The notes under the pieces were generated by a model. The model was not told the DNA's origin. It was given only the letters and a program-made list of their open reading frames with translations, and did not search any database. A DNA stretch of 60,633 nt, taken from the sequence record PP596835.1. One strand, 5' to 3'. Both the position numbers and the translations under genes were made by a program. This DNA is from Escherichia phage Dru_SM1. This document shows positions 4,706 through 25,754 of the stretch, in pieces. Within the stretch, counting starts at the first letter, position 1. The number at the start of each line of letters is the position of its first letter.

Positions 4706-5767
4706 ATGTCTAAATCTAAAATTATTCTACCATTTGGTCGTGGTGAAACTGACCTGACTCGTTTGAAGGATGTCATTGTCCCTGAAATCTTCACTGGTTA
4801 TGTGCAGACGCAGACCGCTGAACTTTCTGCTCTGATTCAATCCGGTGCAGTTGTAATGGACGAGCGTTTATCTGCTAACCTTGCTGGTGCAGGTTTGACT
4901 TTTAACGAGCCGTTCTATAACGACCTGAAAGATGAAGACGAAGATATCGCGGTTGATAAAGGTAATCCGTCCAAACCGTCAAATATCACTACCGGATCTG
5001 AAGTTCAGGTTCGTATGAGTCGTTCAAAATCCTGGGGTTCTGCGGATCTGGTATCTGCTTTGATTGGTAACGACCCAATGACCGCTATCGGCAACCGCGT
5101 GTCTGCGTGGTGGGTTCGCCGTCTGCAAGCTGCATACATCGCAACCTGGAAAGGTGTATTTGCTAATGCGAAGGAATCCCATAACGACGATTTGACTTTC
5201 GATATTTCCGGTTCTTCGTTTGTAAACAACCAGACCAACTTTACCGCGTCTAACTTCATCAACGCAACGGCAACGATGGGTGATGCTGCTCGTGGTCTGA
5301 CCATGATTATGGTACACTCTACCGTTCGTAACCGTATGCGTCAGTTGAACCTGATCGACTTCATTCCGGATGCTCGCGGTGAAACTCAGTTTGAGTATTA
5401 TCAGGGTCTGCGTATTATTGAAGATGACTCCATGCCGCACAATCCGACTACTGGTGTGTTTGAAAGCTGGCTGTTCGGTCCGGGCGCAACTGCAATGGGT
5501 GCTGGTTCACCGAAAGTACCGACTGCGGTTGTTCGTGACGAAGCTGCTAACAATGGCGCTGGTGAAGAAGTTCTTCACAACCGTGTTGAATGGATTCTGC
5601 ATCCAGTCGGTCATGCTTGGGCTGCTGCTCAAACTGCTAAAGGTGGTCCGTCTAACGCTGCAACTACTAACAACCTGGCCCATGCAGATTCCTGGCGTCG
5701 TGCGTTCCCTGAGCGCAAGCAGCTTAAAGTTGCTCGCCTGATTACTCGTGAGTATCAGGGTTCCTAA
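4706..5767 (+). CDS. major capsid protein
   Basis: 353-aa ORF after scaffold gene, GGAGA RBS, followed by a strong terminator; order and size typical of HK97-fold capsid proteins. Confidence 0.65.
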   Translation: MSKSKIILPFGRGETDLTRLKDVIVPEIFTGYVQTQTAELSALIQSGAVVMDERLSANLAGAGLTFNEPFYNDLKDEDEDIAVDKGNPSKPSNITTGSEVQVRMSRSKSWGSADLVSALIGNDPMTAIGNRVSAWWVRRLQAAYIATWKGVFANAKESHNDDLTFDISGSSFVNNQTNFTASNFINATATMGDAARGLTMIMVHSTVRNRMRQLNLIDFIPDARGETQFEYYQGLRIIEDDSMPHNPTTGVFESWLFGPGATAMGAGSPKVPTAVVRDEAANNGAGEEVLHNRVEWILHPVGHAWAAAQTAKGGPSNAATTNNLAHADSWRRAFPERKQLKVARLITREYQGS

Positions 5768-6251: not shown

Positions 6252-6905
6252 ATGAAAACACTAATTGAAGCACTGTTAGAACTCGATCCGGATAACCCGA
6301 ATCATTGGACTAACGATGGTTTACCTAAAGTAGACGCTCTTCGTTTTGCTACTGCTAACCCGTCTTTGACCCGCGACGATATTACGTCCGCTGCTCCACT
6401 GTTTACTCGCGACAACCGCGTGCTGGAAGAACCGGAACCTGTTGAACCAGTTAAATCCGCTGATCCAGTTTTACATGAAGCTGTTAAACAGGAGAAAGCT
6501 CATGAGGAACAAAAGAAAATCGCGGTTGCAACGATGCAAATCGAAGTTAAGATTAGCGAAGCACTGCGTGCTCTTCTGGAGCCGGAAAAAATCGGTGACA
6601 CTTCCAGCCTAAGCGATGAAGAGCTAAAAGTGAAGAGCGAAAAGCTCGGCAATGTGGTTAAAGAGATTGCTGACACCAAGCACGCGCTGGAGCTTGCTAT
6701 TGCAGACGTTCAATCGGATCTGGATAAGATTATCGTTGAGCAGGAGCGTCGTCGTCCTAAGTCCGGTCTTACTGCAACTCAGATGTATCTTGAAGCGCAG
6801 AAAAAACGTAAACCTGAAGACATGCTTTCTGACCATCGCTTCCAGAACCCTATTGACGATCCGGTTGCCCGTATGGTTGCACGTAATATGATGCGTCGAG
6901 GTTAA
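6252..6905 (+). CDS. hypothetical head-module protein
   Basis: 217-aa acidic ORF with RBS in the head gene block. Confidence 0.4.
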   Translation: MKTLIEALLELDPDNPNHWTNDGLPKVDALRFATANPSLTRDDITSAAPLFTRDNRVLEEPEPVEPVKSADPVLHEAVKQEKAHEEQKKIAVATMQIEVKISEALRALLEPEKIGDTSSLSDEELKVKSEKLGNVVKEIADTKHALELAIADVQSDLDKIIVEQERRRPKSGLTATQMYLEAQKKRKPEDMLSDHRFQNPIDDPVARMVARNMMRRG

Positions 6906-18196: not shown

Positions 18197-18220
18197 CCCC
18201 GCTAATGCGGGGTAATTTTT
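18197..18220. terminator. bidirectional rho-independent terminator
   Basis: hairpin CCCCGC-TAAT-GCGGGG flanked by A-run upstream and TAATTTTT downstream; sits between convergent J-like gene and lipoprotein gene. Confidence 0.6.
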
Positions 18221-18452
18221 AGTAATCTATAACACAGTTGGAAGGACTACCAATTCGTCGGTAGTCGTGATCAATCTCATGACACCATTGCCCAGTCATT
18301 GGAAGTTTTTCGGTATCATAGATTAAAGAACCGTTACCGTCACGGTCTAAAGGTTTTGGAATAACACCGGAATTAGGCTTTCCTGTGTCCAGACCAGTAC
18401 CGCAAGCAGCTAACAGAAATGTTAATGCTAAAATTACAATAGAACTTTTCAT
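18219..18452 (-). CDS. small lipoprotein (candidate receptor-blocking superinfection-exclusion protein)
   Basis: 77 aa from ATG at 18452 with AAAGGAG RBS; signal peptide plus lipobox (LTFLLAAC-G); lone opposite-strand gene between tail fiber genes. Confidence 0.6.
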   Translation of the reverse strand: MKSSIVILALTFLLAACGTGLDTGKPNSGVIPKPLDRDGNGSLIYDTEKLPMTGQWCHEIDHDYRRIGSPSNCVIDY

Positions 18453-18489
18453 CGGGACTCCTTTTAGGTTGTTGTCAAGGTTCAAGTTT

Positions 18490-20946: not shown

Positions 20947-21049
20947 TTATGACTAAGCAAGTAACAAATATTCCAGCTGACATCAAAACTCTCTTAAAAA
21001 GAGTGCAAACCTGAGCGACTTAGCAGACCGTGCCGCAGCGTGGTTAAAC

Positions 21050-22270
21050 GTGCGCCCGCTTGGGTCTACTCCACTTGCTGGAGATCCCGTTGGAGACTAT
21101 GACGCCGCAACTAAGCGTTGGGTGGAGAATAGGATTAATACTGGTACAGTAGGGCCCACAATGAATGGCGTTATGAATTACGGGGTCGGGGATTTTCATC
21201 TTCGAGATAGCCGTGCGTATATTCAACCGTATGAGGTGGTTTCTGACGGACAGCTTCTTAATAGGGCTGACTGGCCTGAATTGTGGGCGTACGCGCAAAT
21301 GGTTGGGGCCATAGATGATTCAGTTTGGTTAGCAGATAAATTTCAGCGTGGCAGATATTCATTGGGGGATGGAACAACAACCTTTCGTGTTCCAGATAGA
21401 AATGGGGTACAGCAAGGGTCAATACGCGCTCTTTATGGCCGTGGAGATGGTGGGAATAGTGGTGCAAATGGGCAACTGTTCGAATCCGCTGCGCCTAATA
21501 TCTATGGGCGTATTGCTAGTTATTCTGGTTCGTCATACGCTCAGGTATTCAGCGATATCAATCAAGGTGCATTTAGAACAAGTAATGATCTATTCCCTGA
21601 TGCCAGAGGTGATGCAATCCCGATAACTGGTGCAATTGCAATATCCGGGCGTTATAATACTCTTGAGATTGATGCGTCACGTTCAAGCCCTATCTACGGT
21701 GCGTCCACTGATGAAATCCTTACGCGCAACTTTGTTGGTGTGTGGGTAATCCGTGCATCTGGCGGGTTTGTTGCTGCAAACACATCCTGGAGCGTTAAGA
21801 ACTCGGATAAGAGCACACTTCCGCAGAATACCTCCGTTCGCGGCGGTGAGGTGGTTTCGGAATATTCCAACCCAGCAGGTAAGCAATTCGCGCGCATGTA
21901 CTCAAACTCTGTATGGGGTTCTGCTAACGCGGCTGTTATTGAGGCAGAAGGTTCTACTAGACACTCCTACAAATTTTACGAGAATGGCACAGTTGACTTC
22001 CGACAGTCGGGTAGGGTTAACACCTTCCATATGAACACACCTATGGGTACATGGAATGATGCTACTGAGGCCCTAATGAACAACCTTACTACTAATGGCA
22101 TGAATAGGGTTGCCATTGCTAGTGGTTCCGACACACTAGTTCGTGGCTATTCTATCGGGGGGTATCGCCCTAATGGCTACCCAACCAAGGTCGGTTACCA
22201 TATGGATCATTGTAAAAAGCATGTTAAGGGGTATGCTTTACTTCGTAACCAGTTGGTTACATCCGCTTAA
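21050..22270 (+). CDS. tail fiber protein with tail-collar-like motif
   Basis: 406-aa ORF; segment GDGTTTFRVPDRNGVQQGSIRALYGRGDGGNSG resembles the phage tail collar domain; start is GTG at 21050 per ORF track (first in-frame ATG is at codon 38), so start uncertain. Confidence 0.55.
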   Translation: MRPLGSTPLAGDPVGDYDAATKRWVENRINTGTVGPTMNGVMNYGVGDFHLRDSRAYIQPYEVVSDGQLLNRADWPELWAYAQMVGAIDDSVWLADKFQRGRYSLGDGTTTFRVPDRNGVQQGSIRALYGRGDGGNSGANGQLFESAAPNIYGRIASYSGSSYAQVFSDINQGAFRTSNDLFPDARGDAIPITGAIAISGRYNTLEIDASRSSPIYGASTDEILTRNFVGVWVIRASGGFVAANTSWSVKNSDKSTLPQNTSVRGGEVVSEYSNPAGKQFARMYSNSVWGSANAAVIEAEGSTRHSYKFYENGTVDFRQSGRVNTFHMNTPMGTWNDATEALMNNLTTNGMNRVAIASGSDTLVRGYSIGGYRPNGYPTKVGYHMDHCKKHVKGYALLRNQLVTSA

Positions 22271-22295
22271 CAAATCCATATATGGAGATTTTCCT

Positions 22296-23003
22296 ATGTC
22301 TGACATGACTCTTTTACCTACTAATCTCGGTGGCGACGGTTTCGGTGGTGAAGCTGGTGCGGCTGGTATCGGTGGCGCGATCGGTGGTTTGATTGGTTCC
22401 TGGATCGGTAACGGTTGGGGCAGCAATGGTGGTTGGGGTGGTCGCGGTAACTTCGCTGGTCCGGTGGAAGTGCAAGCTTCTGTTGACACCAACGCAATTC
22501 TGCAAGCTATCAACAACGGTACTCTTCAGACCATTCAGGGGCAGAACGGTACTAACCTGACTGTTGAGCGCTCCGCTGCTTCTACCTATAACGGCATAAC
22601 TCAGCAGAACACTCAGAACATGCTGGCTTCCGTTCAGGGTTTTGCTGGTCTGAACACGCAGATCCAGAGCGGCACAAGCCAAGTGCTCGCGGCTCTGTGT
22701 AACAACGAAGCAGCTAATATTACCCGTTCCTTCCAGGCGCAGCTAGAAGCTCAGAAGTGTTGCTGCGAAACCAACCTGAACATCGAGCGTCAAGCAGAAG
22801 CTACTCGTGCGCTCCTGCGCGATCAGCACGCACAAGCGCAAGCTGTTCTGATCTGTGACCTGAAGTCCCAGTTGCAGGAAGCTCGCTTTGCAAACTCTCA
22901 GTTGGCACAAACGGCTGGTCTTACTTGTAAGATCAATCAGGTTGAGCAGTTAGTTAACTTTAAACTGCCAACTCCTCCAACTCCTCCGACTGGCTGCTGC
23001 TAA
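22296..23003 (+). CDS. glycine-rich, Cys-cluster protein of unknown function
   Basis: 235 aa from ATG 22296 (GGAGA RBS); N-terminal Gly/Trp-rich region (GGDGFGGEAGAAGIGGAIGGLIGSWIGNGWGSNGGWGGRGN), internal KCCCE and C-terminal PTPPTPPTGCC. Confidence 0.5.
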   Translation: MSDMTLLPTNLGGDGFGGEAGAAGIGGAIGGLIGSWIGNGWGSNGGWGGRGNFAGPVEVQASVDTNAILQAINNGTLQTIQGQNGTNLTVERSAASTYNGITQQNTQNMLASVQGFAGLNTQIQSGTSQVLAALCNNEAANITRSFQAQLEAQKCCCETNLNIERQAEATRALLRDQHAQAQAVLICDLKSQLQEARFANSQLAQTAGLTCKINQVEQLVNFKLPTPPTPPTGCC

Positions 23004-23073
23004 TCGTTGAAGTGTGGTTAAACTAAAGCGCCTTTCGCTCCTCCGCTTGGGCGCTTTTAACAGAGGTACTATC

Positions 23074-23442
23074 ATGAGCCACATTAAAATTGCAACGATG
23101 GGAATGCCACGGGTCAAATTGCCTAAGGTTGCTTTACCTCGCATTAGCGTAGGTGAGCACCACCATGAACATGAGAAAGAGGAATATAAACATGCTCAAT
23201 CTTATGCTCGAGATCATGAACATATGGCAGCTATGTCAAATGTTCTTGACCGGATGGAAGAACCTCCGCATACGTGGGCGGCGTACCACGACAAGCCCGG
23301 CGGTATGATGTCCATTGTTGAAATGGAATACCGCGAATTAATGGAGTGTAAGAAAGAAGGCGACCGCGCAGGGATCATGAAAGAGTTAACTGATCTTGCC
23401 GCAGCTTGTACTTGCGCTCTTCAAAAAATGAAAGATATGTAA
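23074..23442 (+). CDS. hypothetical protein (weak MazG-like resemblance)
   Basis: 122 aa from ATG 23074; His/Glu-rich; segment VEMEYRELMECKKEGDRAGIMKELTDLAA loosely resembles MazG-type pyrophosphohydrolase helices. Confidence 0.3.
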   Translation: MSHIKIATMGMPRVKLPKVALPRISVGEHHHEHEKEEYKHAQSYARDHEHMAAMSNVLDRMEEPPHTWAAYHDKPGGMMSIVEMEYRELMECKKEGDRAGIMKELTDLAAACTCALQKMKDM

Positions 23443-23457
23443 GAATAGGAAGCCGAC

Positions 23458-23988
23458 ATGCAAAACGTAAACGCAGGAATGGGCGTAACCCAGTTCAACG
23501 GGATGAAACCGAAAAACTCCATCAACATGGGCGGTGTTGATTGGACGTTACGTCGGGACGCTACCGATTCAACTACCATGTTCCCACACCAGAAGGTGAG
23601 CTGGCTTAATGCTGGATGTGAACCTATGGGTGATGGAAGGGTTCATTACTGTTGGATTATGGGAGTGATACCGCCTACGCCGGGCACTATCGAACGACCC
23701 GTGAATGTGATGTATGTCGGCTTCCACCAGTTCAAGATTACAATTGCTCCAAACTCCATTAGTCAATCAGATCTTGATCGTATGCATGTTTACGTCAGCG
23801 ATGGCACAGACTTCGCAGGGGATTTTATTAGTAAGTTTCTTGGTATGCAACCAGAGCAGCCTGTAGAAGCACGCGAGCATATTAGCCCGTGGCCACCCAT
23901 GATTGATCAGGAAGTGCTGCAACCAAAGACCGCTCAAACGGTCCCTCAGAAACCGGAGCAGAAGGTGAAACCAAATGACGAAGAATGA
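23458..23988 (+). CDS. hypothetical protein
   Basis: 176-aa ORF with AGGAAG RBS. Confidence 0.45.
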   Translation: MQNVNAGMGVTQFNGMKPKNSINMGGVDWTLRRDATDSTTMFPHQKVSWLNAGCEPMGDGRVHYCWIMGVIPPTPGTIERPVNVMYVGFHQFKITIAPNSISQSDLDRMHVYVSDGTDFAGDFISKFLGMQPEQPVEAREHISPWPPMIDQEVLQPKTAQTVPQKPEQKVKPNDEE

Positions 23989-24259
23989 AGGTATTGATAA
24001 AGTCGTTGAAGGGCTTTCTATTCGTGCTCATGTTATAGCAGACGAAGGTCATGATCAACTTACAATTATGAAATCTGCATTCAGCGATTTTAAGTCTCTT
24101 GGAAACTTAAGCGGGTTAATGACTGTGGTGTCGACCGGAAAATTAACCCAGCAGCAAATCAGTCTAGCTCAGCGTATTGCTGTTAAAGTTATTGCGGTAC
24201 TTGGGATGATTGAAGCTGAAAAGCCCAGTTCCAAGCAGGATAACGAAAGCGACCTTTAA
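23975..24259 (+). CDS. hypothetical protein
   Basis: 94-aa ORF overlapping upstream gene. Confidence 0.4.
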   Translation: MTKNEGIDKVVEGLSIRAHVIADEGHDQLTIMKSAFSDFKSLGNLSGLMTVVSTGKLTQQQISLAQRIAVKVIAVLGMIEAEKPSSKQDNESDL

Positions 24260-24270
24260 GGAGGTCTACT

Positions 24271-24474
24271 ATGTGTGGTAATACTAACCGTTGCTGTCTA
24301 GGCAGTCCTGCAACACAAGCAGGTATACTTCAGGGGCAATTGGCTCAAGCAGCGTGTAATTGCAAAACTTTTCAACCAGTAGCGCCAACTCCTGTGTTTG
24401 TGAATGCTTTTGCACCGCCTGTTTTCAATACTTTTGGCGTATACCCATACGGTGCTTTCTTTCGTATATTCTAA
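24271..24474 (+). CDS. small Cys-rich protein
   Basis: 67 aa with AAGGAGG RBS; 5 Cys in the first 31 residues (CGNTNRCC ... CNC); followed by a terminator. Confidence 0.4.
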   Translation: MCGNTNRCCLGSPATQAGILQGQLAQAACNCKTFQPVAPTPVFVNAFAPPVFNTFGVYPYGAFFRIF

Positions 24475-24484
24475 GAAGAGAAAA

Positions 24485-24507
24485 GGGGCAAACGCCCCCT
24501 TTCTTTA
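24485..24507. terminator. bidirectional terminator between convergent rightward and leftward gene blocks
   Basis: hairpin GGGGC-AAAC-GCCCC with A-run upstream and T-rich downstream. Confidence 0.5.
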
Positions 24508-24786
24508 ACGCTTATGAAAAGCTGACAGGATTGCAAGTGTTACAGCACCCAATCCGACGACGGTAGCATAAGTGAGTTGGCGTTGAACTTTAACAAAGCC
24601 ATAATAGGTGCTAGGGATGTCTACAATCCCAAACGCCATGGCAAAGCTGGTCGCAAGTAGTGCTACAGCAAGGGCGCGTAATAACGCCCTGCTCATTGCT
24701 GTAAAGCCCTTCTCATTACTATCTCCGGTCATTATAACAACAATGATTAGAAATAGCGAAACGACAACTAATAGATATTCCATCAT
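24505..24786 (-). CDS. small membrane protein
   Basis: 93-aa ORF with two long hydrophobic segments. Confidence 0.45.
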   Translation of the reverse strand: MMEYLLVVVSLFLIIVVIMTGDSNEKGFTAMSRALLRALAVALLATSFAMAFGIVDIPSTYYGFVKVQRQLTYATVVGLGAVTLAILSAFHKR

Positions 24787-24989
24787 TTGCGTCTCCTGTA
24801 CATGTATTGATCATACGCAGTCGCAATAATAGTGACTGGCCAGCAAGCGAGTATACATAGAAGACTTACAATCTTCTCCCAAAGTTTCTTATGGGCTAGC
24901 GCATAATCATAGTTATTCCAACAAAAGAAATAAGTCATTGTTGCAATAACTGCACCAATTACAAAATACATAACCACATATTCATGCAT
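24783..24989 (-). CDS. small membrane protein
   Basis: 68-aa ORF with two hydrophobic segments and basic C-terminus (YRRRK). Confidence 0.45.
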   Translation of the reverse strand: MHEYVVMYFVIGAVIATMTYFFCWNNYDYALAHKKLWEKIVSLLCILACWPVTIIATAYDQYMYRRRK

Positions 24990-25176
24990 CGGTAAACTCC
25001 CAAATCAGATTATAATTATTTCCCGCTGGTACATAGCGCCCTGGACGTGGATCGAAGCTTTTCACTGAAAACTCCAGCGTTCCAGCGCTATATAGTTGCA
25101 CCTTTTGTCCGTCCCACGGTCCGCCGATCAATTTAAAAGTCTGTCGATAACCTTTTGCAGCTTTAGCCATGCTCAC
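24982..25176 (-). CDS. hypothetical protein
   Basis: 64-aa ORF, start/stop overlap with neighbours. Confidence 0.4.
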   Translation of the reverse strand: MSMAKAAKGYRQTFKLIGGPWDGQKVQLYSAGTLEFSVKSFDPRPGRYVPAGNNYNLIWEFTDA

Positions 25177-25212
25177 TCCTTAAATACCCGCGCGAACGCG
25201 GGTATTATTTTA

Positions 25213-25428
25213 TTACGCTTCCGGTGTTTCCGGTGTTTCCGGTGATGGTTCATCAGGAACAACAATAACGTCGGCTAAAACTTTCAACGCTTCTTGTTGC
25301 TCCGCTGTCATATTATTCCAGTAATAGACGTGAATGTAAACTACTGGTTTGTCACCATGTTGCCACGGTTCGCGACTTACTACATCCACACCTAAATCGC
25401 TTGCTACGCTCTTTTCTTTACCGGCCAT
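25213..25428 (-). CDS. hypothetical protein
   Basis: 71-aa ORF with acidic PETPETPEA tail. Confidence 0.4.
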   Translation of the reverse strand: MAGKEKSVASDLGVDVVSREPWQHGDKPVVYIHVYYWNNMTAEQQEALKVLADVIVVPDEPSPETPETPEA

Positions 25429-25460
25429 GCTAATGTACCCCTTTAAAGTTTTACACGCTG

Positions 25461-25754
25461 CTAGCCCCCAAAAGTACCCCTATGATCAAGGGTTCTAATG
25501 CGCTGCTCCAGCCAACGTGCGTTCTTTTCAAAATGTTTATTGGTACGCGCTGCTTTGCACGCATCAATAATACCTAACTCACATCCAAGCTGCGTTTGTC
25601 CCATCACGTAAGAATTGGTTAACATGCTGGATACAAGCTCTTCACATTGTAACTTAATAGGATGGTCTTGGCATAGTTTCTTTGCTGCATCTTTTAAATC
25701 CACAGCTTGGACACCAGGCGCTATCAGCAAAGTTACGAGTAATAAACGTTTCAT
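25461..25754 (-). CDS. secreted protein with signal peptide
   Basis: 97-aa ORF; N-terminal signal peptide (MKRLLLVTLLIAPGVQA-VD) and 4 Cys. Confidence 0.45.
   Translation of the reverse strand: MKRLLLVTLLIAPGVQAVDLKDAAKKLCQDHPIKLQCEELVSSMLTNSYVMGQTQLGCELGIIDACKAARTNKHFEKNARWLEQRIRTLDHRGTFGG

What the first reader, a model, noticed from the sequence alone, without database searches (positions are those of the whole stretch)
22296..24474. Glycine-rich Cys-cluster protein and a small Cys-rich protein after the tail fiber genes
The ORF at 22296-23003 has an N-terminal Gly/Trp-rich tract with repeated GxxxG spacing, a central Gln/Asn/Thr-rich region, CCC and CC clusters and a proline-rich C-terminus. 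The ORF at 24271-24474 (67 aa) packs 5 Cys into its first 31 residues. Glycine-zipper tracts of this kind occur in membrane-inserting toxins and some virion proteins. Their position just after the receptor-binding genes suggests a virion-associated or host-envelope-active role.
Basis: seen in the sequence. Interest (0 to 1): 0.5.

Follow-up and report, generated by a model that had tools for sequence, protein, structure and literature searches.

The report
Cys-triad membrane protein accessory cassette
The two cysteine-rich genes are real and are the first and last genes of a five-gene, dispensable cassette that moves between unrelated phages; its lead protein is a membrane-anchored helical rod with an invariant triple cysteine, and its function is unknown.

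Summary
ORF A (22296-23003, 235 aa) and ORF E (24271-24474, 67 aa) are expressed-looking genes under purifying selection in a Seuratvirus genome.

The "virion or toxin" reading is only partly supported. A founds a large uncharacterised family: PHROGs 9288, 16490 and 8119, no Pfam, NCBIfam or PDB relative. Members occur in phages of Enterobacteria and of Bacillota anaerobes. Each has an acidic N-tail, a glycine-zipper or plainly hydrophobic membrane segment, a long polar helix and a universally invariant CCC.

A is followed in fixed order by B (weakly MazG-like), C (beta-rich, no known fold), D and sometimes E. This cassette sits after tail fibres, after terL, or among early genes in different phages.

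A has been lost repeatedly: an amber codon in SeppeHuegi, deletions in SHIN8, GottfriedDienst and 9NA, and decayed copies in T5-like phages.

No homology was found to colicins, microcins, spanins, holins or fibre chaperones.

Best guess: a late-made, oligomeric cytoplasmic-membrane accessory factor, for exclusion or egress control, rather than a core virion part. Confidence in this guess is low. Topology, oligomer state, thiol chemistry and virion presence are all untested.

The parts
22196..22295 (+). About 100 nt conserved leader upstream of A. It holds the GGAG Shine-Dalgarno sequence (22284-22287). In this window it overlaps the 3' end of the tail-fibre ORF.
   Evidence: Megablast similarity to about 20 Seuratviruses with other fibre alleles starts at query position 1196-1207, which is window 22195-22206. 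Sequence. A weak TTGTAA-16-TATGCT promoter-like match was seen by eye only and fell below the threshold of the scan.
22296..23003 (+). Gene A, 235 aa: acidic N-tail, glycine-zipper membrane segment, long polar helix, invariant CCC, Pro-rich tail ending in CC. Lead gene of the cassette (phrog_9288).
22329..22463 (+). Codons 12-56 of A: the Gly/Trp-rich tract, with the hydrophobic core AGAAGIGGAIGGLIGSWIG (residues 20-38) and the GxxxG chain G26 to G46.
   Evidence: Kyte-Doolittle 1.27 here and 1.6-2.3 in relatives. AF2 predicts a helix at 23-33. Conserved glycines.
22758..22766 (+). Codons 155-157 of A: the CCC triad, the only universally invariant residues of the family.
   Evidence: Alignment A3 of 28 members at 20-46% identity to the window protein. 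61 of 62 distant representatives have exactly one CCC. Four have no other Cys.
22965..23000 (+). Codons 224-235 of A: the tail LPTPPTPPTGCC. It is lineage-variable. Other members carry Thr/Ala-rich tails or Gly/Cys/aromatic tails.
23074..23442 (+). Gene B, 122 aa (phrog_9157): His/acid-rich N-half and a conserved C-terminal two-helix core, xEMEYxEL...KELTDLAAA. Weakly MazG/PRA-PH-like.
   Evidence: (annotated 'putative pyrophosphatase').
23458..23988 (+). Gene C, 176 aa (phrog_8329): beta-rich soluble protein with no known fold relative.
23975..24259 (+). Gene D, 94 aa (phrog_7239): small protein with one amphipathic hydrophobic stretch. Its secondary structure was not predicted here.
24271..24474 (+). 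Gene E, 67 aa (phrog_25697): an invariant Cys-rich N-half, MCGNTNRCCLGSPATQAGILQGQLAQAACNC, and a variable Pro/aromatic hydrophobic C-half. Optional fifth gene of the cassette. AAGGAGG Shine-Dalgarno at 24258-24264.
   Evidence: Homologue after D in Sashavirus, 9NA and yong3.
24481..24503 (.). GC-rich hairpin with T-runs on both strands: a bidirectional terminator that closes the cassette and the convergent replication operon.
   Evidence: Annotated the same way in SA126VB.

Best explanation
Gene A encodes a single-pass cytoplasmic-membrane protein. It has a short acidic N-tail, a self-associating glycine-zipper transmembrane helix, and a helix of about 130 residues rich in Gln, Asn and Thr that carries an invariant Cys-Cys-Cys. 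It is made late in infection.

A is the lead gene of a portable, non-essential cassette, A-B-C-D with or without E, that inserts at junctions of the structural region in unrelated phages.

Proposed mechanism, which is inferred and not shown:
- A oligomerises in the infected cell's cytoplasmic membrane through the glycine zipper.
- The rod subunits are tied together at the Cys triad, either by a bound metal or by inter-subunit thiol links. In Seuratvirus, Sashavirus and yong3 the small Cys-rich hydrophobic protein E may join at this point.
- The assembly changes what can cross or trigger that membrane. The most likely effect is blocking DNA entry by later-arriving phages (superinfection exclusion). 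Tuning the timing of lysis or egress is the next possibility.
- B, C and D have no signal peptides or transmembrane segments and would act on the cytoplasmic side.

A is not a colicin or microcin-like toxin, a spanin, a tail-fibre chaperone or a core virion component.
For: Shown:
- Real genes under purifying selection, with good ribosome-binding sites.
- A membrane segment across the family: Kyte-Doolittle up to 2.3, an N-tail with 0.3-0.6 K+R against 2.2-2.3 D+E, and about one Arg just after the segment.
- AF2 gives a short helix at 23-33 and one uninterrupted helix at 89-220, with pLDDT up to 90 around residues 170-200.
- CCC is universally invariant, and some members have no other Cys.
- The order A-B-C-D is fixed in Seuratvirus, Nonagvirus, Hanrivervirus, Sashavirus, PY100-like Yersinia phages and many IMG/VR contigs. 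E follows D in three lineages.
- The cassette's position varies: after J and tail fibres, after terL, after internal virion proteins, or among early-strand genes.
- A occurs in phages of Bacillota as well as Enterobacteria, so the common target is not an outer membrane.
- A is dispensable or lost repeatedly: Q83 amber in SeppeHuegi, deletions in SHIN8, GottfriedDienst and 9NA, and decayed copies in T5-like phages.
- B, C and D have no hydrophobic segment above Kyte-Doolittle 1.52.

From established knowledge:
- Exclusion genes often sit next to tail or DNA-delivery genes. Examples are T5 llp, T1/phi80 cor, HK97 gp15 and P22 sieA. The P22 SieA abstract was seen.
- Such genes are accessory.
Against: - No experiment or homology ties A to exclusion or to lysis.
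- A is co-oriented with late genes and only 25 nt from the fibre gene. An exclusion function is usually needed early.
- A separate lipoprotein gene (18219-18485, minus strand) already looks like the receptor-blocking exclusion factor.
- Partners such as a MazG-like protein are not known for exclusion systems.
- Topology is unresolved. The charge bias only weakly favours N-out/C-in. One distant relative that lacks the CCC (P0238) has a Lys-rich stretch before the membrane segment.
- There is no heptad periodicity in the most conserved part of the rod, so a coiled-coil oligomer is not demonstrated.
- The Bacillota branch has unrelated neighbour genes.
Confidence: 0.35

Rival explanations
1. A is a virion-associated, membrane-inserting protein. 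It would be an accessory ejection or tail-tip component whose hydrophobic N-terminus enters the host membrane at infection, with B, C and D as assembly helpers.
For: - A is always co-oriented with, and usually at the distal end of, structural genes: after J and fibres, after internal virion proteins in podovirus-like contigs, and between head genes in Bacillota phages.
- It has a strong Shine-Dalgarno sequence.
- From memory: a glycine-zipper N-terminus followed by long Gln-rich helices is the architecture of the phiX174 DNA pilot protein H. Tape-measure and ejection proteins also carry hydrophobic segments.
- Deletions in SHIN8 and GottfriedDienst removed the lateral fibre and A together.
Against: - Viable phages carry an amber codon or deletions in A.
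- Distribution is patchy among close relatives, for example Solent against 9NA.
- The cassette also sits away from tail genes.
- A does not co-vary with fibre alleles.
- A MazG-like partner is not a morphogenetic factor.
- No PDB or Pfam link to any virion protein.
Confidence: 0.2
2. A is a lysis-timing or egress regulator: a holin- or antiholin-like single-pass membrane protein whose glycine-zipper helix joins or modulates the holin lesion.
For: - Late-operon position and a membrane anchor.
- Presence in phages of both diderm and monoderm hosts fits a cytoplasmic-membrane target.
- Dispensability fits accessory lysis regulators.
- From knowledge: glycine-zipper and Gly/Ala-rich weakly hydrophobic helices are typical of pinholins and SAR domains. 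T4 holin T is a 218-aa single-pass protein.
Against: - A complete lysis cassette (endolysin, holin, i-spanin, o-spanin) lies at the other end of the genome.
- No endolysin gene was seen next to A in the loci whose neighbours were examined.
- No holin family match.
- The N-tail lacks the positive charges of SAR anchors.
Confidence: 0.17
3. The cassette is a cytoplasmic thiol- or metal- and nucleotide-based counter-defence or metabolic module. A would be merely tethered to the membrane with its rod and CCC inside the cell, working with the MazG-like protein B.
For: - The charge bias favours N-out/C-in.
- B, C and D lack export signals.
- There is no even-number bias of Cys, and some members have only the CCC, which argues against intramolecular disulfide pairing.
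- The family is present in strict anaerobes.
- B has weak hits to MazG-like proteins. B is His-rich, with 10 His.
Against: - No PADLOC or other hit for any of the five proteins.
- B's hits are not significant, with E-values of 0.02-0.7.
- The Bacillota branch lacks B, C and D.
- Thr-rich and Pro-rich tails are more typical of extracytoplasmic linkers.
Confidence: 0.12
4. A is a lateral tail-fibre chaperone, as annotated in phage PJ16.
For: Its position directly after fibre genes in several genera, and the PJ16 annotation 'lateral tail fiber chaperone'.
Against: - No co-variation with fibre alleles.
- The cassette sits next to terL in Sashavirus and apart from tail genes in YenM_12.
- SeppeHuegi keeps a full fibre gene but has an amber codon in A.
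- A has a membrane segment, which is unexpected for a soluble chaperone.
- No match to fibre-assembly families.
Confidence: 0.03

Closest known systems
Phage superinfection-exclusion membrane proteins (P22 SieA, HK97 gp15, T4 Imm/Sp; T5 Llp and T1/phi80 Cor as lipoprotein versions)
   Same: They are accessory and dispensable, membrane-located, and encoded beside tail or DNA-delivery genes. They are frequently exchanged or lost.
   Different: - No sequence or profile similarity.
- A is larger, with a 130-residue helix and an invariant CCC.
- A comes with three or four conserved partner genes.
- A appears to be expressed late.
- A is found across sipho-, myo- and podovirus-like phages of both diderm and monoderm hosts, whereas known exclusion proteins are specific to their own injection apparatus.
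Two-component spanins (lambda Rz/Rz1)
   Same: An N-terminal membrane helix followed by a long helical domain with functionally important Cys. There is also a nearby small Pro- and Cys-rich protein (E), which superficially recalls the o-spanin.
   Different: - E has no signal peptide or lipobox.
- The phage already has i- and o-spanins in its lysis cassette.
- The family occurs in phages of monoderm Bacillota.
- The N-tail is acidic rather than basic.
phiX174 DNA pilot protein H
   Same: A glycine-zipper hydrophobic N-terminus followed by long helices rich in Gln, Asn and Thr. This is an architecture-level resemblance recalled from memory.
   Different: - The PDB-wide profile search returned only three weak hits, none of them protein H.
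- H is an essential virion protein of a tailless phage, whereas A is dispensable in tailed phages.
- Tube formation by A is untested.
Glycine-zipper membrane proteins (SlyB/Pcp-type lipoproteins; pinholin and SAR helices)
   Same: Consecutive GxxxG repeats within a weakly hydrophobic helix, a motif known to drive tight helix-helix packing.
   Different: - No Pfam glycine-zipper family was hit even at E up to 1.
- The SlyB match has E = 6.4.
- There is no lipobox.
- Distant family members replace the zipper with an ordinary hydrophobic helix.
All-alpha NTP pyrophosphohydrolases (MazG / PRA-PH), for gene B only
   Same: The conserved core xEMEYxEL...(15)...KELTDLAA resembles the EXXE(12-28)EXXD metal-binding motif. 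There are weak hits to PRA-PH and to AF_0060.
   Different: - The hits are below threshold.
- Only E85 and E88 are invariant, and the final Asp is His in several members.
- Only about 50 residues are conserved.

Membership tests
Colicins / microcins (glycine-rich bacteriocins) | Sequence homology to a colicin translocation or pore domain, or to a microcin | tested here: not met
   No Pfam hit for A or E at E up to 1. None for 28 family members. None in NCBIfam. The PDB profile search returned only three weak hits, the best at E = 0.08, and none is a colicin.
Colicins / microcins (glycine-rich bacteriocins) | Double-glycine leader (LSxxELxxIxGG) with linked immunity and export genes | tested here: not met
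   The N-terminus MSDMTLLPTNLGG does not fit the leader consensus (read from the sequence). The neighbours B, C and D are not ABC exporters or immunity proteins.
Pfam glycine-zipper families (Gly-zipper_Omp / YMGG / OmpA, Rick_17kDa_Anti; SlyB) | Profile match to the family | tested here: not met
   None listed at E up to 1. SlyB 7ojf matched at E = 6.4.
Pfam glycine-zipper families (Gly-zipper_Omp / YMGG / OmpA, Rick_17kDa_Anti; SlyB) | Consecutive GxxxG repeats in a hydrophobic helix | tested here: met
   The chain G26-G30-G34-G38-G42-G46, with G30 invariant and G26, G34 and G38 at least 90% conserved. This is a motif-level resemblance only.
Two-component spanin (i-spanin plus o-spanin) | i-spanin: N-terminal transmembrane helix plus a periplasmic helical domain | tested here: inconclusive
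   A transmembrane segment and a long helix are present. However, the N-tail is acidic and the topology is unresolved.
Two-component spanin (i-spanin plus o-spanin) | Partner outer-membrane lipoprotein with signal peptide and lipobox | tested here: not met
   E starts MCGNTNRCCLGS, with no signal peptide or lipobox.
Two-component spanin (i-spanin plus o-spanin) | Located in the lysis cassette; restricted to phages of diderm hosts | tested here: not met
   Endolysin, holin, i-spanin and o-spanin lie at the far genome end in SeppeHuegi. The family is present in Lachnospiraceae, Ruminiclostridium and Faecalimonas contigs.
Holins | Match to a holin family, and adjacency to an endolysin gene | tested here: not met
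   No Pfam or PHROG holin match. No endolysin gene was seen beside A in the loci whose neighbours were examined.
Holins | Forms lethal membrane lesions at a programmed time | not testable with these tools
   This needs expression and lysis-curve experiments.
Tail-fibre assembly chaperones (Tfa / gp38 / intramolecular S74 type) | Co-variation and obligatory adjacency with the fibre distal domain; profile match | tested here: not met
   A is 94-98% conserved downstream of unrelated fibre alleles. The cassette sits after terL in Solent and apart from tail genes in YenM_12. There is no family match.
Superinfection-exclusion membrane proteins | Membrane location, accessory status, and a position beside host-recognition or DNA-delivery genes | tested here: met
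   membrane segment; dispensable; position. These features are permissive, not diagnostic.
Superinfection-exclusion membrane proteins | Blocks adsorption or DNA entry of a superinfecting phage | not testable with these tools
   This needs EOP, adsorption or DNA-entry assays with A expressed in trans.
phiX174 H-type DNA pilot proteins | Sequence or structure homology to the H coiled-coil tube; decameric tube | tested here: not met
   No H chain appears among the three weak hits of the PDB profile search at E up to 10. The oligomer state could not be tested because only a monomer AF2 run was available.
MazG-like all-alpha NTP pyrophosphatases (gene B) | Profile match, and the EXXE(12-28)EXXD motif | tested here: inconclusive
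   PRA-PH at E = 0.023, with 15.6 bits against a cut-off of 21.3. PDB 2p06 at E = 0.33 and 1yvw at E = 0.69. E85 and E88 are invariant, while the second motif is only partly conserved.

The most novel reading that the evidence does not exclude
The A family defines a previously unrecognised class of phage late membrane machinery. It would be an oligomeric rod or channel held together by a Cys-triad metal or thiol centre, conserved from coliphages to phages of gut Clostridia. It would travel with lineage-specific soluble partners and, in some lineages, a small Cys-rich hydrophobic co-subunit (E). It would perform a general membrane function, such as a new mode of exclusion, of DNA or protein passage, or of lysis control, that no known phage protein family covers.
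Probability: 0.25. Interest if true: 0.75.

Novelty: new variant of a known kind. Interest (0 to 1): 0.5.

Why it matters
The genes are catalogued only as "hypothetical". Together they form one of the more widely shared accessory cassettes of enterobacterial siphoviruses, including several BASEL reference phages.

- The lead family reaches phages of gut Bacillota.
- An invariant triple cysteine in a membrane-anchored helix has no described counterpart among phage proteins.
- Natural knock-outs already exist: SeppeHuegi (amber codon), 9NA against Sasha or Solent, and GottfriedDienst. Its function is therefore directly testable with available phages.
- If the cassette governs exclusion or lysis timing, it would matter for cocktail design and for phage competition in the gut.

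Tried and rejected
- **Pfam, NCBIfam, PADLOC and PHROG annotation.** Only "unknown function" PHROGs were found.
- **PDB profile searches for A and B.** Nothing significant.
- **AF2 of A.** The result is a low-confidence single long helix (mean pLDDT 59), so no fold search was run on it.
- **A and E as paralogues.** BLASTP found nothing significant.
- **E as Seuratvirus-only.** This was suggested by the word-indexed search and was overturned by the Sashavirus, 9NA and yong3 homologues.
- **The Bacillota neighbours X, Y and Z as remote B, C and D.** hhalign probabilities were below 1%. An impression that Y looks ferritin-like comes from memory only and has no Pfam support.
- **Heptad coiled coil.** No 3.5-residue periodicity. 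There is a 3.64 peak only upstream of the CCC.
- **Even-Cys bias as a sign of disulfide pairing.** Absent.
- **Literature.**
  - Both BASEL papers turned up in searches; only the first was searched, and its one use of "sugar-binding" concerned other proteins. Nothing on this gene was found.
  - The Seuratvirus comparative paper, the accessory-gene screen and CRISPRi-ART, and the Sfin-1, Sf11, Vid5, P400 and eiAU papers do not address this gene.
  - The CAjan, 9NA-like and PY100 virion-proteome papers are not held.
- **Other annotations.** The BASEL annotation "putative sugar-binding protein" for the KarlJaspers homologue and the PJ16 annotation "lateral tail fiber chaperone" found no support here.
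Full report
**Source of the window.** The window is a Seuratvirus genome (Queuovirinae). The stretch 22196-25500 is 94-98% identical to SeppeHuegi, Greed, CAjan, slur01 and others. Every record annotates the genes under the finding as hypothetical, apart from one "putative pyrophosphatase".

**Observation check.**
- A starts at an ATG preceded by GGAG, 25 nt after the tail-fibre stop codon. E has an AAGGAGG ribosome-binding site.
- Residues 12-56 of A hold 21 Gly and 3 Trp. By reading the sequence, there is an unbroken GxxxG chain from G26 to G46, and its central glycines are conserved.
- A has eight Cys, including CCC155-157 and the terminal CC. E has five Cys in its first 31 residues.
- Against phage SA126VB, dN/dS is 0.076 for A and 0.167 for E. 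The N-half of E is invariant and its C-half is fast-evolving. Both are therefore real, constrained genes.

**The A family.**
- A matches phrog_9288 end to end. No Pfam, NCBIfam or PADLOC model matches, and no PDB sequence is significantly related.
- A word-indexed search found 170 clusters at 90% identity.
- A profile search of 1.8 billion representatives found 121 clusters at 50% identity. Most are 200-290 aa and match full-length.
- tblastn places homologues in Seuratvirus, Nonagvirus, Sashavirus, Hanrivervirus and Tlsvirus-like Drexlerviridae, T5-like Epseptimavirus, PY100-like Yersinia myoviruses and Edwardsiella phage eiAU.
- Distant members fall in phrog_16490 and phrog_8119. They are encoded on contigs of Lachnospiraceae, Ruminiclostridium, Faecalimonas and other Bacillota.
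- Across 28 members at 20-46% identity to the window protein, the only invariant columns are the three cysteines.
- The shared plan is:
  - an acidic N-tail, M-x-x-M-x-L-x-P in the proteobacterial branch;
  - a hydrophobic segment flanked by Gly/aromatic tracts;
  - one to three QGF(A/S)GLN-like motifs in most members (up to four by eye in some sequences);
  - (D/E)CCC, then the best-conserved block T..I..EG..TR.LI…LCD.K.KI..LE.Q and SQ.AQT;
  - a variable tail that is Thr/Ala/Pro-rich or Gly/Cys/aromatic-rich.

**Structure and topology.**
- The glycine-zipper tract scores only 1.27 on a 19-residue Kyte-Doolittle window. The homologous segment in relatives is an ordinary transmembrane helix, with values up to 2.3. 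I therefore read it as a membrane anchor.
- Family-wide, the N-tail of about 23 residues has 0.3-0.6 K+R and 2.2-2.3 D+E. The 25 residues after the segment have about one K/R. This is a weak positive-inside lean towards N-out/C-in and is not decisive.
- AF2 on 66 sequences gives mean pLDDT 59. It predicts a short helix at 23-33 and a single helix at 89-220, most confident at 170-200. I ran no fold search on that model.
- Hydrophobic periodicity is 3.64 residues upstream of the CCC. There is no 3.5 signal downstream, so a classical heptad coiled coil is not shown.
- Cys counts show no even-number bias: 35 even against 27 odd among the distant representatives. Four members have only the CCC. The triad itself, rather than intramolecular disulfide pairs, is what is conserved.

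**The cassette.**
- The three genes after A are B (23074-23442), C (23458-23988) and D (23975-24259). They are homologous to the three genes after the A homologue in KarlJaspers (Hanrivervirus) and in Yersinia phage YenM_12.
- Iterated profile searches over 87 fetched loci found A followed in the same order by B, C and D, or by B or C alone, in every proteobacterial-type lineage except L027, where A is followed only by a 75-aa ORF.
- JenP1 (Nonagvirus) has A-B-C-D.
- E first looked Seuratvirus-specific. However, Sashavirus phages and 9NA encode MCCRTSCCLGIPATQFGLLQSQIAH…FVFW directly after D. Hafnia phage yong3 holds an intermediate copy. A tblastn search of 2.3 Gb with that protein listed no other group: every row shown was from these lineages or Seuratvirus E.
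- The unit is therefore A-B-C-D with or without E.
- Its location differs between phages:
  - after the J-like protein and lateral fibres in Queuovirinae, Hanrivervirus, eiAU and IMG/VR loci L017 and L027;
  - after internal virion proteins in podovirus-like contigs;
  - after terL in Sashavirus;
  - as a separate plus-strand unit among minus-strand small genes in YenM_12.
- In Bacillota phages A lies between a large ORF that looks, by eye only, like a minor-head (SPP1 gp7-type) protein and one that looks scaffold-like. Neither was searched against any family library. It is followed there by three other conserved genes, which show no hhalign similarity to B, C or D.
- B has only sub-threshold similarity to MazG/PRA-PH proteins, with E85 and E88 invariant.
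- None of B, C or D has a signal peptide or transmembrane segment.

**Dispensability.**
- SeppeHuegi, a plaque-forming BASEL phage, carries CAG to TAG at codon 83 of A.
- SHIN8 and GottfriedDienst have deletions that run from the lateral fibre gene into or through A but keep B to E.
- 9NA retains only the first 45 codons of A fused to unrelated sequence. It lacks B, has a truncated C, and keeps D and E, whereas its relatives Sasha and Solent have the full set.
- The T5-like phage examined (vaffelhjerte) holds a frameshifted remnant after its L-shaped fibre gene, and other T5-like Salmonella phages give only partial tblastn matches.
- Intact copies are under strong purifying selection. This is the signature of an accessory gene that is useful in nature and expendable on laboratory hosts.
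- A also does not co-vary with fibre alleles. The recombination boundary lies about 100 nt upstream of its start.

**Comparison with known kinds.**
- Colicin, microcin, glycine-zipper and tail-needle homology is absent.
- A spanin reading fails for three reasons. E has no lipobox. The genome has its own endolysin, holin and i/o-spanin cassette elsewhere. The family occurs in monoderm hosts.
- A holin reading lacks both a family match and endolysin adjacency.
- A fibre-chaperone reading fails on co-variation, on position and on the SeppeHuegi genotype.
- The architecture recalls phiX174 protein H and i-spanins. The genomic behaviour recalls exclusion genes such as P22 sieA, HK97 gp15 and T5 llp. 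Both are resemblances and not memberships.

**Most likely mechanism.** This is inferred, with confidence 0.35.
- A is made late, inserts into the cytoplasmic membrane and oligomerises through its glycine-zipper helix.
- The rod subunits are joined at the Cys triad by a metal or by inter-subunit thiol links, possibly together with E.
- The assembly alters passage or triggering at the membrane. Exclusion of later phages is my first choice and lysis or egress timing my second.

Rivals:
- a dispensable virion-borne membrane-inserting protein (0.2);
- a lysis regulator (0.17);
- a cytoplasmic thiol, metal and nucleotide module working with the MazG-like protein B (0.12);
- a fibre chaperone (0.03).

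**Limits.** The analysis produced no virion proteomics, no multimer prediction and no topology or expression data. The three most relevant proteome papers could not be read.

**Novelty.** The genes are already catalogued as unknown PHROG and pVOG families. New here are:
- recognition of the cross-phylum family with an invariant CCC;
- the five-gene portable cassette;
- its repeated natural inactivation.

Noticed in passing
window 18219-18485 (minus strand): An 88-aa ORF. From its second Met it reads MKSSIVILALTFLLAAC, which is a lipoprotein signal peptide with a lipobox. It lies antisense between the J-like tail-tip gene and the lateral fibre gene. It is probably a Cor/Llp-type receptor-blocking exclusion lipoprotein. 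The SHIN8 record annotates it as 'lipoprotein'.
   Followed up: partly
L001 (SeppeHuegi) about 6270-6272, equivalent to window codon 83 of A (22542-22544): A natural amber mutation (CAG to TAG) splits gene A into two annotated CDSs in a BASEL reference phage. This is a ready-made knock-out for functional tests.
   Followed up: yes
L098 (Salmonella phage 9NA) 1684-2665: 9NA gp12 consists of the first 45 residues of A fused to unrelated sequence. B is missing, C (gp13) is truncated, and D (gp14) and E (gp15) are intact. The classical lab phage carries a decayed cassette, while Sasha and Solent have it whole.
   Followed up: yes
L004 (Salmonella phage vaffelhjerte, T5-like) 4752-5342: A frameshifted, truncated copy of A lies directly after the L-shaped tail-fibre gene, with no B, C or D. 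It looks like a remnant carried along with fibre-gene exchange.
   Followed up: partly
L043 5881-8126 and L031, L035, L087, L092-L095: The Bacillota-type A proteins have a strongly hydrophobic transmembrane segment. Some have two CCC motifs. They share the tail RPxPxPAYITxSPY…GCxCG. They are followed by three conserved genes of about 142, 196 and 140 aa that are unrelated to B, C and D. The 196-aa protein looked ferritin-like by eye but has no Pfam support.
   Followed up: partly
window 21050-22270 and 20947-21049: The second tail-fibre ORF starts at a GTG 104 nt after the preceding gene. It is about 570 nt shorter than its SA126VB counterpart. Its last 25 or so codons read into the conserved leader that precedes A in all Seuratviruses. 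This suggests a recombination or deletion junction.
   Followed up: no
window 23074-23442 (gene B), residues 28-52: A His/Glu-rich tract, HHHEHEKEEYKH…HEH, precedes the conserved core. Equivalent His/Asp-rich tracts occur in the KarlJaspers and YenM_12 B proteins. This may be a metal-binding region.
   Followed up: no
P0122 (223 aa, metagenomic contigs up to 61 kb): This ORF fuses A residues of about 41-171 to the C-terminal half of C. It represents another deletion derivative of the cassette.
   Followed up: no
window 24481-24503: A GC-rich hairpin flanked by T-runs on both strands sits between the convergent late operon and the replication operon. It is a bidirectional terminator.
   Followed up: partly
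family-wide C-termini (P0126, P0146, P0150, P0171, P0189, P0199, P0209, P0214 and others): Many A homologues end in Thr-rich runs followed by …AA, …GA or …TA. This could be a degradation or processing signal. It is unexplained.
   Followed up: no
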